Source: Eledone cirrhosa
Lineage: Eukaryota
Length of the DNA: 64,000 nt
NCBI GenBank assembly: GCA_964016885.1
Contig: OZ024740.1
Coordinates: forward strand, 297,600,001-297,664,000
Reading direction: 5' to 3'
This document shows, in pieces, positions 15,339 to 57,300 of this stretch; positions within the stretch are counted from its first letter, which is position 1, and every line of letters begins with the position of its first letter. The notes beneath the pieces are model-generated. The model searched no databases. It was not told where the DNA came from and saw only the letters and a program-made list of their open reading frames with translations. The translations under genes and the position numbers were made by a program.

Positions 15339-18300
15339 CTGTTTAAAAAGAGAAGATATTTTTAGTGAGACAGATGGAGGCAATGACACTGGGAGTTCGG
15401 CTCTGCTACGTTCGGACTATATCCTTGCGGTTGTGTTCATAACACATATAATCGGGTGTATACCCTTATAGCTGACATTTGAAGTTTCTTTATCTTAATG
15501 AGATAGTGAAAGTGAGAGTGAATATAACAGCTTCCATCTATTGGGGCAAGTAATACGATACTTACCATAGCTAACTAAAACAGGTGATGAAATCATTTAC
15601 ATATATTATCCAGCATGGCGGTTACATCTGAGGTCAGTAATGAGCTTAAATCCTAGGTGTTCATGTGAGCCTGTTATTATGACCTATCTTATTTTTACGC
15701 TATCACCAATCAGCATGTAAGCTTTCTGTGAAGTAAAACCACCTACAATTTTGAAGCAACTAGATTTCGCAAGATCACACCCGACGTAAAATAGAAATAA
15801 TACTATTATTATATTCTAGTGTGGAGGCACGTCACCTAATGGTAAGGGTGTTGGACTTACGATCATGATGTCGTGGCTTCGATTCCTGGGTTGCGTGATG
15901 TGTTCTTGAGAAAAACACTTCATTTCACGTTGCTCCAGTATACTCAGCTGAAAATGAATACCAGCAATGGCTGAGGGTTTAACCCTGAGCTGGACTGGCA
16001 TCCTGTCCAAGGGGGAGTCTTGTACTTTCAGTCGCTTCGTGCCATGAAACCGGGATAAGCACCGGCTAAATGAGCCTCTGGCTTAAGACAGACTTTAGAC
16101 TTTATTGTATTCTAATACATTTGTATGATTTATTGATTTCTTTAGAGATGTTGTAGACACAGCGCAGCCGAATGGTAAAGGTGTTCGCTTCGCATCCATT
16201 AGGTTTCAGGTCCGATCTCTTTATGTTTTATCTTGGGAAAGTGTAATTTACCCTCTCCTCGGGGCGATCCATATCTTGTAAATGAAACTGGGTGGATGGA
16301 AATTGTTTGGAAGCCCGTTTCGTGAACTGTACCGGTAATTCAAAGGGTCAGCATGTAACAGTGGGGACCTTGACCATATAGTACTGCATGTTGATCGGGA
16401 TTACCCTCTCAGACGTGTTCCAGGTGGTGTGGGGGAAATCAATAATGCTGCAAATTACACCTTGGTCTAGCTCGTCTATCTCGACATGCTTCACTAGCAA
16501 CTGTCATACCACAAAAAGAAGACTATAGGGAAAGAAAAAGGGGTCTATAACTATATGTTAGTTATTTAAATTTTGGTGACATTGATTGCATTACTTACAT
16601 GCTACTGGTCTGGAGAGTGCTGGAGCTGGTTCCACTGAAATACCGAGAGAACAACATGACAAATATATACATGATTCCAAGAAATGGTATTTTAATATAT
16701 ATGAATATAACTTGCATATATATATATATATATATATATATATATATATATATATATATATGTGTGTGTGTGTGTGTGTGTGTGTGTGTGTGTGTGTGTG
16801 TGTGTGTGTGTGTGTGTGTGTGTGTGTGTGTGTGTGTGTGTGCGATGGTGCCTGTATATATATATATATATATATATATATATATATATATATATATATA
16901 TATGTGTGTGTGTATGTATATATAAATGTAATCTGAGTTTTTCGAATATTAATAATGGTTTCTTATAGAGGCACAAGGCCAACAATTATCCCAGTGCATT
17001 ACTGGTACTTTATTTTATCGACCCAGTAAGGATGAAAGGCAATTTTGCAAACAAGCCTCAATGTTATAGTCATGTCAGTAGAATGAACACTTCATTCTTG
17101 CTCTTGTGTTGGCATGCGAACAGAACTGCAGACACTAATGTTTCTGGGTATCACCCTTCATCAGTACAGCTCACTGTTCACCTGCCAAACTGTCAGAGCT
17201 AGTGAAAATATATGGTATTTTCAAAAATACACAGTGACTGATTTGGCCTGATTTGCATATTAGCATACTAGCTGATCAGTCAGATCTGTATATTAGCAGA
17301 TCCACTGATCAGTTTGGTAGGTGAGCAGTGAGCTATACAGAAAGATTAGTGTCTGCAGTTCTGTTCCCATGCCAACACAAGAGCAAGAATGAAGTGTTCA
17401 TTCTACTGACATGACTATAAAATTGAGGCTTGTTTGCAAAACTGAAAACGAATCGAATGTTATTATTAATATTCGAAAAACTCAGATTACATTTATTGTA
17501 TTCAGCCACGTAGAGCGAAATTTTCTTTTTATATATATATATATATATATATATATATATATATATATATATATATATATAGATAGATAGATAGAGAGAG
17601 AGAGAGAGAGAGAGAGAGAGAGAGAGAGAGAGAGAGAGTATATATTGGTTGTATACCAACACCTCAGTATGCAGATTGGAGCACTCGACGAAGTGCGCAG
17701 GTTGGTTTGGTTACTCCGGAGTAATGTAAAATAAAATAAAATAAATAAGTCAAATGTTTAAAATTTGGCTTCGTTTATTACTGCTATATATATCTCGGTG
17801 ACAGCCATCTTTGGCTGTGACCTCTTCAGGCAGTCCGAATGAGTGTGGTAGAGACGAGTACACATGTTGTTGAGGTGTATAACTTTGTCAATACTCTGAT
17901 ATGCCCAGTTCCTGGTTGGGTTGTTATTTCACTGAGGACTGCCTGAAGAGGTCACAGCCTAAGATGGCTGTCACCGAAATATATATAGCAGTAATAAACG
18001 AAGCCAAATTTTAAACATTTGACTTATTTATTTTATTTTATTTTATTTTATTTTATATATATATAAAATATATATGTAGATCGTAAAATGATGAATTTTT
18101 TAATATAAGGAACTGTTTCTTTGTTTTTATTCATTATTTTTATTAATTTATATGTATATATTTATATATTTATATATATATATATATATATATATATATA
18201 CCATATATATGTGTGTGTGTGTGTTTGCGCATGTGCATGGTATATATATATATATACCAGGTATATATATCATGTAAATATATATATATATCATGTAAAT

Positions 18301-54300: not shown

Positions 54301-57300
54301 GAGCTAGAAGGGACCGAGACCGAAATAAATTGCAACTGCCGAGACAGGGGACCCTGCCCCCTTAGGGGAAACTGCTTGACTGATAGGGTTATATATAGGT
54401 GCACCGTAACTAGCCATAATAGCGTTAAACATTATATAGGGGCTACCTCTGGCCCGTTCAAAATTAGATTTCGAACACATCTCCACTCTTTCGCAAATAA
54501 GAAATTAAGACACTCCACTTCGCTCGCCAACTATATCACAGCATTAAAAGACTTAAACATCAGCTTTTCCACGCACTGGGAAATTGTCGGCAGGGCGGCA
54601 CCGTACAACTTCAAGAGCAAGTGCGAGCTTTGCCTCATGGAGCTCTACCACATCATAACGGCACCCCACGAGCTCATCAACAGCAGAGCTGAAACGACGA
54701 TAAACTGTGGACACCGCTTAAAAATATCCTATTTCAGATGGAATAAGAACGAGGAGTGAAACCGTAAACCGGGTGTCCCTGCACCAAGCTTTAACACCCC
54801 GGCGGGCAGGTACTGCTAAAAACATCCGGAAACTAACCATGCATCCCAGACCCGGCATGAATCGACCCAGGCGGTCAGGCGCAGCAAACAAACGTCTCGA
54901 AACAAACGTTGCATACCTGAACCTGTATCGGATAAAAAAAATTGTCCGGAAAAGACTGCCCTAACACCGGCCAGAGTTATCTCCCTTGACCTACTGCAAA
55001 ATCAAAACAGGCTATATTTGCGAGCAATGAACCTTGACGTGAATTTACATGTTACTGGTTGGTTGTTTGTTCTATGTGTGTGTGTGTTTTCATTTTGTCC
55101 TTAATTGTAAGTTGTGATGTTGCTATTCCATTCATGATTTCTATTTAATTTTGTTTTTTTTATTTTAATTTTGTTTAATTTTGGTTGGAGTTCATTTACG
55201 TTTATAAACATAAATGAACTCCAACCAAAATTAAATAGAAAACATGAATGGAACAGCAACATAACAACTTACAATTAAGGACAAAATGAAAACACACACA
55301 CACATAGAACAAACAACCAACCAGTAACATGTAAATAAACAAATAAATAAACAAATATAAACACACACAGACACCCGGATGTAACACATGCGCAAACTAA
55401 GCACACAACACACACAAAAACAAGATGGCGTAGGACAGAACAAAGGAGAGGCACAAAAACAAAGAAAAGAATCCCCAGTCACTGAAGAGGTCACAGAATG
55501 TGTGACGAAAGAACTTTGACAATATATGAACAATCGTCTGGTTGTGGAATCAATCAACCAACCGGAAATTTATAAATTTAATTTATAATAAATTGAAGTG
55601 AAAGCAACTGGTGCGTGTGTTTCTTATTGGAAACATGGCCCTCCCAAAGTATAACAATATCGGTTTCAACACACGTTTTCAGATAAAGAATCTTGCTAAA
55701 CAAATTCAGAAACGAAATATATATATATATATATATATTTAGTTGTTTAACCAAGATAAGTTTGTAGAGATAGGGTTAGTCAAATATTCTCAGTTAAGTA
55801 AGATTCTACTGTATGGAAGGAAAACCACATATTAGTTATGCGGCATAAACTAAAACAAAATTTTCCGATTTTCCGACACTTATTAATTCCATTTCATTTG
55901 TTTTATAACACACATGCGCATACAAACAAAACTGATGTCCCAAAGAATGTAAAAAAAATAGGAATTCTGTTTGCCTATCAGTGCATAGTATTATGAATAG
56001 TAATTCTAGAACATTGTCGTAGAAAACACATAAAATATACATAAAATTTAAGTGAGCACATAAAATATACATAAAATTTAAGAAAGGCAATACCTCAACC
56101 AAAACTGAAAGCATCCCCTTTAAAAATTAATAAAACAAATAAAAGATAAATGTAAATGCAGGTAATAAAAAGAGAGAATACGCTTTCGATTTATTTATTG
56201 GTTTACATACATTTTGTCATAAGAATGTGAACTTTTTTAATAGTTACCAAAGTATCGAGTAACACAAAACAAATGGTTATAGGAGGAATATAACTTGTAA
56301 AGTCAATTACACAGCATTTTATTTAAATATCAACAGCAACATAGAATTGATAAATGTGTCCGAACACGGAAGAGCTGAACTCCCACTGTCATCGCCTCCA
56401 TCTCTCTCGCCCTCCCCATCTCTATGTATTATGAGCAAATGGGTTCCCACGTGCTGGCCGACCCACGGCCCCAGCGGACAGAATGGAGAAGGTGTTTCCT
56501 AGGAGGATGGTAAGGGAAATGCGCTGGAATAGCCATTCCATCTCGCGAAGGTCACACTTGCGACTAGCCAGCTCAGAGCCTATGGCGGTAAGTAGGGGGG
56601 TAGCCCTAGGGCCAAGGACACCAGAAGTCTCCTCTGCTAGGGGAACGACAGCAAACCTGTCGGAGAGCGACCGATACTTGGAGGAAGCCAAATTAATACA
56701 AATGGTAGGCAAATGATACATTCACACACAGACTTTGCGTGAGCGAGTCAAAGTGACTTTTCGTAGCCATGGTTTGTTTTAAATAATCCGGGTGCAAAAC
56801 ATGTTCAGTATTCGATGCTATCAGCTGATTTAAGAGAACCTGGTCATTTTTGAGACTGATGTAATGGGGTTACATAACTACCAACGATTAATCTGCAAAT
56901 CGATATTTTGCTCTCTGAAACCAATGCTGTTTTTTTTCTTATTCTTTAATTGTTTATAAATATAGACGGTGGCGAATTGGCAGAGTCGTTAGATCATCGG
57001 ACTGATTGATTTGCAGTATTCTCTGAGTTCAAATCCCGCTAAGATCAACTTTGCCTTGCATCTTTCGAGGTCGATAAAAAATTACCAGTCTAGTACTGGG
57101 GTCAAATTTTCCTCTACATCTATTTTTCACTTCCATTCTCTCACTCTCCACCCTTCTCTGAAAGAAATCTGTTGTACTCAGACTTGGAGAGGAGATGGGC
57201 TCCACCGGAATTTTCTTTAATGCTTTAGAAACGCCGTATGTCAACACAACGTCCCTATGACGTCCTCGTGAGTTACAGGTCCATGTATGTATATATATGT

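What the first reader, a model, noticed from the sequence alone, without database searches (positions are those of the whole stretch)
17123..55520. Hammerhead-ribozyme-dense introns: more than 15 motifs from about 10 families in one gene
Seen: CUGAnGA/GAAA cores with stem II and an NUH site, most with a paired stem I, at 17123(-), 17938, 21245, 26076, 27054, 28518, 34501, 34898, 35696, 37488, 40819, 41007, 41914, 51801, 52616(-) and 55478, plus inverted copies. Two lie directly 3' of PLE GIY-YIG ORFs. Established: Penelope-like element pLTRs carry minimal type-I hammerheads, often with palindromic stem III that works as a dimer. Inference: an extreme radiation of PLE/retrozyme-like elements has seeded self-cleaving motifs about every 2-3 kb, a layer invisible to ORF-based annotation.
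Basis: partly seen in the sequence, partly recalled or inferred. Interest (0 to 1): 0.72.

Follow-up and report, generated by a model that had tools for sequence, protein, structure and literature searches.

The report
Ordinary Penelope hammerhead stubs in introns
The 22 hammerhead-ribozyme-shaped motifs in these introns are end-pieces of about 11 repeat families, three traced to Penelope-like jumping genes (a known pairing) and the rest likely so; the whole genome carries them at about this density, and in sampled genes they lie on either strand equally, so they are likely idle inside host RNA.

Summary
The motifs are real: a strict type-I hammerhead descriptor finds 10 canonical motifs in the window against 0.01 in shuffles. 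With variants and inverted copies there are 22, from 11 families. The gene is not special: the same descriptor gives 6.1 per 64 kb over 1.18 Mb of the genome (P of 10 or more = 0.16), about 285,000 genome-wide. Three families are tied to GIY-YIG ORFs of Penelope-like elements (PLEs); the others show the PLE footprint ((TA)n ends, inverted copies). Corrections: three listed sites have CAGAAGA, not CUGAnGA, the fixed state of a Hydra-clade family (19,559 versus 206 copies); the 55478 motif does not belong to the ORF beside it. In 1.25 Mb of 20 gene stretches, intact motifs lie 48 sense to 48 antisense, while a SINE control is skewed. This fits motifs that need a partner or the element's protein and do not cut host pre-mRNA; tolerated slow cutting is the rival. 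Cleavage is untested. This scan already noted the genome-wide density and the A4 family on other DNA of this genome; the strand test is what this report adds.

The parts
17123..17172 (-). Type-I hammerhead motif, family F2; 8-bp stem I, palindromic 10-nt stem III; sense to host gene
   Evidence: at least 40 copies 99-100% identical elsewhere
17780..17834 (-). Inverted copy of the 17938 motif (F11), GAAA box mutated
17938..17992 (+). Type-I hammerhead motif, family F11; long stem II, AU-palindrome stem III
21245..21295 (+). A4-core (CAGAAGA) hammerhead-like motif, 3' end of a Hydra-clade PLE
26079..26110 (+). Minimal hammerhead motif with 2-bp stem I; family of 4,364 exact-core copies
27054..27098 (+). 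Type-I hammerhead motif, family F7; occurs elsewhere as about 480-bp tandem units with (TA)n (retrozyme-like)
28057..28107 (-). A4-core motif, 187 nt after its own GIY-YIG remnant (28289-28450, minus; internally deleted copy)
28518..28568 (+). A4-core motif, inverted partner of 28057-28107, stem I weakened
31620..34295 (+). Interrupted Hydra-type PLE ORF remnants (RT part 31620-32231, GIY-YIG part 33732-34295)
34501..34538 (+). Type-I hammerhead motif, family F16, 210 nt after the GIY-YIG remnant of the same element
34777..34827 (-). A4-core motif, inverted partner of 34898
34898..34948 (+). A4-core motif
35696..35766 (+). Type-I hammerhead motif, family F4; 8-bp stem I, long stem II, 8-nt palindromic stem III
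37291..37361 (-). Inverted copy of the 37488 motif (F20), 5' strand of stem I cut off
37488..37562 (+). Type-I hammerhead motif, family F20, long stem II
40819..40889 (+). Second F4 motif
40955..41051 (.). Head-to-head pair of F6 motifs (cores 40999- and 41007+), stem I lost at the inversion junction; 4-bp hairpin stem III
41914..41954 (+). F16-related motif
51638..51832 (+). Tandem pair of F12 motifs, 159 nt apart (51642 with C3 changed, 51801 with 10.1 changed)
52616..52665 (-). Second F2 motif, sense to host gene
53495..54765 (+). Broken Hydra-type PLE ORF remnant with GIY-YIG (54274-54759); not the source of the 55478 motif
55104..55520 (+). 5'-truncated PLE of another clade: inverted piece 55104-55205, last 24 codons of its GIY-YIG ORF 55204-55275, hammerhead motif (F3) 55478-55520
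15154..60681 (-). Host gene (inferred): 11 calcium-binding EGF exons and 3 chitin-binding (CBM_14) exons; EGF exons go on beyond the window end

Best explanation
These are hammerhead-shaped 3' end-pieces of about 11 repeat families, three traced to Penelope-like retroelement ORFs and the others likely of the same origin, and they are likely idle passengers in the host pre-mRNA. Mechanism: the element's RT-endonuclease copies its RNA from the 3' end into (TA)n, usually stops early and often adds an inverted piece, so each insertion leaves the hammerhead that lies 80-250 nt from the end (footprint shown; copying mechanism from the literature). The motif would cut only in the element's own context, where two copies swap their palindromic stem III or the element's protein helps folding (inferred from published PLE ribozymes). 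A lone copy in an intron is predicted to misfold, so selection does not see which strand it lies on (strand neutrality shown; cause inferred). The window is an ordinary sample of a genome with about one such motif per 10 kb.
For: Motifs far above shuffles. Same descriptor: 112 in 1,175,200 bases of other stretches, 6.1 per 64 kb, about 285,000 genome-wide (bootstrap 210,000-373,000); 45 in 440 kb for the arbitrary stretches alone. Whole-genome count of one sub-pattern: 156,049 against 6,937 for the reversed control; 63 of 69 such matches in my sample have a stem II. PLE links: A4 family 932-948 nt after a Hydra-type ORF at 10 distinct places; F3 193-213 nt after another GIY-YIG ORF in 8 of 14 copies; F16 joined to its ORF end in 39 other places. 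149 of 171 motifs have (TA)4 within 250 nt downstream against 442 of 1,730 random positions; 70 of 171 have an inverted copy within 4 kb upstream. Strand test in 20 gene stretches (1,254,600 bases): 48 sense and 48 antisense; solo copies 31:30; intact against decayed copies P=0.88; tRNA-SINE control 88:139, P=0.0009. Folding: the hammerhead fold is not the minimum-energy fold in any of 15 window motifs tested, and the probability of stems I+II with an open core is below 0.02 in 13 of 15. Literature: single minimal PLE hammerheads did not cleave and dimers cleaved weakly (PMC4209133); the anole PLE hammerhead cleaved only with the element's protein, and no reads ended at its site (PMC11167929).
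Against: No cleavage or expression data here. Eight of the 11 window families were not tied to any ORF in the DNA I held; F7 also forms tandem arrays and may be a non-autonomous retrozyme. Within the window the 10 canonical motifs are 2 sense to 8 antisense (not significant). Introns cut by a slow hammerhead can still be spliced (PMC2995048), so strand neutrality does not prove inactivity. The sense share has a 95% interval of 0.40-0.60, so a mild depletion is not excluded. Gene orientation rests on Pfam hits, not RNA. Nearest-neighbour folding ignores tertiary contacts.
Confidence: 0.75

Rival explanations
1. Same origin, but many intronic copies do cut the pre-mRNA slowly (alone where stem III is a real hairpin, or as dimers in tandem arrays), and the host tolerates it because exons stay tethered during co-transcriptional splicing.
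For: Families with a hairpin stem III of 3 bp or more are also strand-neutral (11 sense to 9 antisense), and one of them is 6:1 sense. A tandem array with 4 sense copies lies in this same gene just beyond the window. Hammerhead-cut introns splice normally in human cells, while a fast ribozyme blocks splicing (passages of PMC2995048).
Against: Predicted misfolding of single copies; weak or protein-dependent activity of tested PLE hammerheads.
Confidence: 0.18
2. The introns of this gene are a hotspot, or the motifs are kept by selection to regulate the gene.
For: 10 strict motifs against 6.1 expected; 22 motifs between 17.1 and 55.5 kb and no strict motif in the first 17 kb.
Against: P=0.16 by resampling 10-kb stretches. 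24 of 39 arbitrary 10-kb stretches had none and others had 3-5. Most window copies are antisense to the gene. Several are mutated or truncated, and each family has many near-identical copies elsewhere.
Confidence: 0.04
3. Most families are non-autonomous retrozymes or ribozyme-bearing SINEs that only borrow PLE enzymes, not ends of coding PLEs.
For: Eight families were not linked to an ORF, and shared upstream sequence is often under 500 nt. F7 and a 310-bp family form tandem arrays. A preprint derives animal retrozymes from PLE pLTRs (10.64898/2026.07.22.740005).
Against: Strong 5' truncation makes ORF links rare in small samples; three window families and one other are linked. This changes the family labels for some motifs, not the mechanism.
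Confidence: 0.3

Closest known systems
[quoted passage not shown]
   Same: Type-I layout, unpaired base before stem II, short palindromic stem III, many families per genome, mostly solo copies, opposite-strand pairs 100-700 bp apart, 2-bp helix I variant as in Drosophila virilis.
   Different: Number: about 285,000 estimated here against about 2,000-9,000 per genome reported there (different descriptors, so not strictly comparable). Several families here have stem II of 9-15 bp or a hairpin stem III.
Hydra-clade PLEs, including Hydra-1_Obim of Octopus bimaculoides (Craig et al. 2021, PMC8557442; section on Hydra, passages, supplement parts 1-2 and a search of the supplement)
   Same: RWR, DKT, CxCx5C linker, C-terminal GIY-YIG, (TA)n ends, 3' hammerhead with U-U at the base of stem II and often U at position 17.
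   Different: Every core in that paper's hammerhead table begins with ctga; the largest family here has A at position 4. Its unit is 3,259 bp, a little above the stated 'generally <3 kb'.
Non-LTR retrozymes of animals (Cervera and de la Pena 2020, PMC7229834, passages; Li, Clavereau and Pollet preprint, parts 1-2 of 5)
   Same: Tandem 310-480 bp hammerhead units exist in this genome (F7 and a 310-bp family). Axolotl has 126,247 type-I motifs.
   Different: Most window motifs are solo or inverted pairs. The Xenopus analysis found intron depletion by region; in the parts read it did not test strand.
PAc, the Poseidon PLE of Anolis (PMC11167929; passages)
   Same: pLTR hammerhead; model for protein-assisted cleavage.
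   Different: Tested biochemically; nothing here was.

Membership tests
Type-I hammerhead ribozyme (minimal PLE type) | Core boxes CUGANGA and GAAA with A15.1-U16.1 and an NUH site | tested here: met
   10 of 16 listed sites pass the full descriptor; 13 of 16 have both boxes intact
Type-I hammerhead ribozyme (minimal PLE type) | U at core position 4 (sites 21245, 28518, 34898 and two inverted copies) | tested here: not met
   A4 in 19,559 exact 29-mers against 206 with any other base; these are filed as hammerhead-like
Type-I hammerhead ribozyme (minimal PLE type) | Stems I and II, different in sequence between families but paired | tested here: met
   About 30 families with different paired stems in 1.24 Mb, Chao estimate 39; 145 hits against 2 in shuffles. 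26081 has 2 bp; 41007 has lost stem I.
Type-I hammerhead ribozyme (minimal PLE type) | Short palindromic stem III for dimer formation | tested here: met
   Fully self-complementary in 8 of the 10 strict window motifs; predicted III:III duplex -3 to -10.5 kcal/mol for those
Type-I hammerhead ribozyme (minimal PLE type) | Self-cleavage | not testable with these tools
   No RNA run of the organism; no bench data
Rfam hammerhead families | Covariance-model match | tested here: not met
   No hammerhead family among 128 matches at E<=1
Penelope-like elements (EN+) | RT plus C-terminal GIY-YIG ORF upstream of the hammerhead in the same element | tested here: met
   For 3 of 11 window families: A4, F3, F16. 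Assigned by motifs and similarity among ORFs; Pfam gave no match for these ORFs.
Penelope-like elements (EN+) | Same link for the other 8 families | tested here: inconclusive
   No consistent ORF upstream in 2-22 copies per family
Penelope-like elements (EN+) | Partial tandems (pLTR-ORF-pLTR), 5' truncation, inverted 5' piece | tested here: met
   L179 has hammerhead-ORF-hammerhead; L173, L178, L181, L183 have inverted 5' copies; 70 of 171 motifs have an inverted upstream copy
Hydra clade (A4 family) | RWK-like motif, DKT, CxCx5C linker, (TA)n insertion | tested here: met
   RWR, DKT and CNCRNRVDC in P0001, compared by eye with Hydra-1_Obim; (TA)n ends
Hydra clade (A4 family) | Placement in an RT phylogeny with reference PLEs | not tested
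   No reference proteins were available to the tools

The most novel reading that the evidence does not exclude
This genome is a natural experiment on whether PLE hammerheads cut at all in vivo. About a quarter of a million motifs from some 30-40 families lie in introns without strand cost, and the most abundant family in my sample spread to more than 19,000 copies with a non-canonical A4 core in both terminal repeats. PLE hammerheads would then act mainly as protein-gated switches or protein-binding handles, not as free ribozymes, or else A4 is a new active core.
Probability: 0.3. Interest if true: 0.6.

Novelty: new member of a known kind. Interest (0 to 1): 0.33.

Why it matters
The link between PLEs and hammerheads is known, and the locus is ordinary for its genome. 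What matters is scale and testability. An estimated 200,000-370,000 motifs escape Rfam in one animal genome, above the largest count I found in print (axolotl, 126,247, in a genome about nine times larger; descriptors differ). They are strand-neutral in introns. This offers a large, cheap test of an open question stated in the literature (PMC8557442, PMC11167929): whether PLE hammerheads cleave in vivo and whether the element needs them.

Tried and rejected
First descriptor without a spare base beside stem II found only 4 motifs; replaced. Other CUGANGA sites in the window (6593, 20178, 23834, 24415, 38565, 49867, 58550 and others) fail the descriptor; 20178 and 24415 lie in chitin-binding exons. 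An antisense bias suggested by the window (2:8) vanished in other genes (35:32:48). A genome-wide CAGANGA pattern (127,075 against 45,557 control) was not used as a hammerhead count, because many listed matches lack a stem II and look like LINE coding sequence; it also shows that excess over the reversed control can come from other repeats. Sequencing runs: only small-share hits from other organisms or metagenomes and three runs of unknown kind; no reads were laid. Pfam does not recognise the PLE ORFs. The hammerhead belonging to the 54274-54759 element was not identified: one search listed 40 other matches, but their flanks were not read. Papers not held: Lunse et al. [quoted passage not shown] So a prior report of an A4 core, or of a higher density in schistosomes (recalled as tens of thousands in a 0.4-Gb genome), is not excluded. 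Searches that found no A4 report or cephalopod count: 'hammerhead U4A variant', 'hammerhead U4C self-cleavage', 'hammerhead Penelope octopus', 'cephalopod ribozyme Penelope'; no strand-bias study surfaced. Supplements of the bioRxiv preprint and of PMC4209133 were not seen and may bear on these points.
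Full report
Observation. All 16 coordinates carry a hammerhead-shaped motif. A strict type-I descriptor passes 10 canonical motifs in the 64-kb window; 100 local dinucleotide shuffles give a mean of 0.01 and the reversed sequence gives 0. Adding variant, mutated and inverted partners gives 22 motifs with both core boxes between 17,123 and 55,520, in 11 families. Three listed sites (21245, 28518, 34898) read CAGAAGA, not CUGAnGA. Rfam reports no hammerhead in the window at E<=1 (0 of 128 matches).

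Setting. The window is G000:C1:297,600,001-297,664,000 of a 3.0-Gb animal genome. It is likely an octopod: this is inferred from a repeat I recall as an octopus SINE, from the likeness of the PLE ORF to Hydra-1_Obim (by eye) and from earlier notes of this scan; I did not test it. The minus strand holds 11 EGF exons with AG/GT borders and 3 CBM_14 exons, the last ending in a stop at about 15.15 kb; EGF exons continue at least 60 kb beyond the window. One gene is the simplest reading but rests on homology alone (no RNA run).

Is the gene special? No. The same descriptor found 37 motifs in 39 arbitrary 10-kb stretches (389,800 bases; shuffles 0-1) and 112 in 1,175,200 bases when gene-body stretches were added: 6.1 per 64 kb, about 285,000 genome-wide (bootstrap 210,000-373,000; arbitrary stretches alone 306,000, range 190,000-443,000). 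Ten or more in 64 kb arises in 16% of resamplings. A direct whole-genome count of one sub-pattern gave 156,049 matches against 6,937 for the reversed control; in my sample 63 of 69 such matches have a stem II and 43 of 69 pass the full descriptor. About 30 families were seen, with a Chao estimate of 39. These counts include tandem arrays.

Origin. Three window families are tied to GIY-YIG ORFs. (a) The A4 family lies 932-948 nt after a Hydra-type ORF at 10 distinct places (overlapping loci counted once; most of these places were picked because they showed paired motifs or ORFs). L179 is a complete hammerhead-ORF-hammerhead unit of 3,259 bp with A4 in both. The ORF has RWR, DKT and CxCx5C, the marks of the Hydra clade (PMC8557442 section 11). 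Most long copies are 92-97% identical to L179, range 85-97%. (b) F16 (34501) is contiguous with its ORF end in 39 other places at 94-97%. (c) F3 (55478) lies 193-213 nt after a different GIY-YIG ORF in 8 of 14 copies; in the window only its last 24 codons and an inverted piece remain, inserted next to an unrelated Hydra-type remnant. The other eight families were not linked in the copies I held but share the footprint: 149 of 171 motifs have (TA)4 within 250 nt downstream (random positions 442 of 1,730), and 70 of 171 have an inverted copy upstream. F7 also forms tandem units and may be a retrozyme.

The A4 core. The 29-mer with A4 occurs 19,559 times, and with C, G or T 206 times in all, so A4 is the master state and not decay. 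All cores in the published Hydra/Chlamys table begin with ctga. Perreault et al. 2011 (PMC3088659; section 8 and passages) mention a natural U4C that is slow in vitro yet supports viroid infection, and contain no 'U4A' string. I could not read Lunse et al. 2017. Two earlier notes of this scan describe this family.

Do they cut host RNA? If lone sense-strand copies cut pre-mRNA harmfully, they should be depleted. I took 20 gene stretches oriented by clustered EGF_CA or I-set hits (fetched; window excluded). Result: 48 sense and 48 antisense canonical motifs in 1,254,600 bases (95% interval for the sense share 0.40-0.60); solo copies 31:30; inverted pairs 15:16; tandem 8:10; hairpin-stem-III families 11:9; intact 52:54 against decayed 41:40 (P=0.88); A4-core hits 4:6. 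A tRNA-like SINE in the same stretches is skewed 88:139 (P=0.0009), so the test can see asymmetry. Density in these stretches (4.9 per 64 kb) is near that of arbitrary DNA (6.5). Folding puts the hammerhead form 1.7-10.1 kcal/mol above the minimum in all 15 window motifs tested, often because the core pairs with the stem III palindrome. Published PLE hammerheads are silent as single copies and weak as dimers (PMC4209133), or need the element's protein and are dispensable for insertion in vitro (PMC11167929). Against this, slow intronic cleavage can be tolerated by splicing (PMC2995048), so neutrality is not proof of silence.

Mechanism and its status. Shown: motifs, families, copy numbers, PLE links for three families, insertion footprint, strand neutrality. 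From the literature: PLE insertion pattern, dimer or protein dependence. Inferred: PLE origin of the other families, misfolding, inactivity in host RNA. Untested: any cleavage.

Comparison and verdict. These are new members of the known class of minimal PLE hammerheads; the A4 family fails one core criterion and is filed as hammerhead-like. Counts in print that I saw: about 2,000 in Schistosoma mansoni, 4,000 in coelacanth and 9,000 in Xenopus tropicalis for minimal motifs, 126,247 in axolotl, and 235 Rfam hits in giant squid. The estimate here is higher, but methods differ, and I recall larger schistosome counts that I could not check, so no record is claimed. The locus-level claim is ordinary. 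The genome-level abundance and the A4 family are of moderate interest and were already noted by this scan. Interest 0.33.

Papers seen: PMC4209133 parts 1-2 of 4; the bioRxiv retrozyme preprint parts 1-2 of 5, no supplements; PMC8557442 passages, section 11, supplement parts 1-2 and one supplement search; PMC3088659 passages and section 8; PMC7229834, PMC6962438, PMC6765202, PMC6155905, PMC11167929 and PMC2995048 passages only.

Noticed in passing
L091 (G000:C1:297,664,001-297,674,000, same host gene, just beyond the window end): 310-bp tandem array with an intact hammerhead in each unit, 4 copies sense and 6 antisense to the host gene; the same family is in L028 and L177 (311-bp units, two inverted arms, (TA)n flanks). 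Retrozyme-like, and the best local candidate for real intronic cleavage.
   Followed up: partly
L174:6700-9700: F7 family (window 27054) as seven copies about 480 bp apart, six on one strand and one inverted.
   Followed up: partly
window 61659-63769 (-) and 60980-61603 (-): Non-LTR retrotransposon ORF with RVT_1 and zf-RVT matches inside an intron of the host gene.
   Followed up: no
window 28694-30225: 616-bp direct repeat, about 2.5 copies, 99% identical, next to the A4 inverted pair.
   Followed up: no
window 856-952 and about 20 other places: Abundant tRNA-like SINE; strand-skewed in gene bodies (88:139), unlike the hammerheads.
   Followed up: partly
G000:C23 near 18,103,800 (L082): A single motif of another family with a CAGAAGA core, 4-bp stem I and 5-bp stem II; may be a second A4 lineage or one mutated copy.
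   Followed up: no
window 17123-17172 (-): The core and stem II of family F2 resemble, by recall only, the newt satellite-2 hammerhead; not checked against any record.
   Followed up: no
window 37728-38360 (+): PLE RT-thumb remnant of a non-Hydra type after (TA)n, downstream of the 37488 motif; link to that motif not established.
   Followed up: no
window 15154-60681 (-) and beyond: Host protein with 20 or more tandem EGF exons followed by three chitin-binding domains; not identified further.
   Followed up: partly
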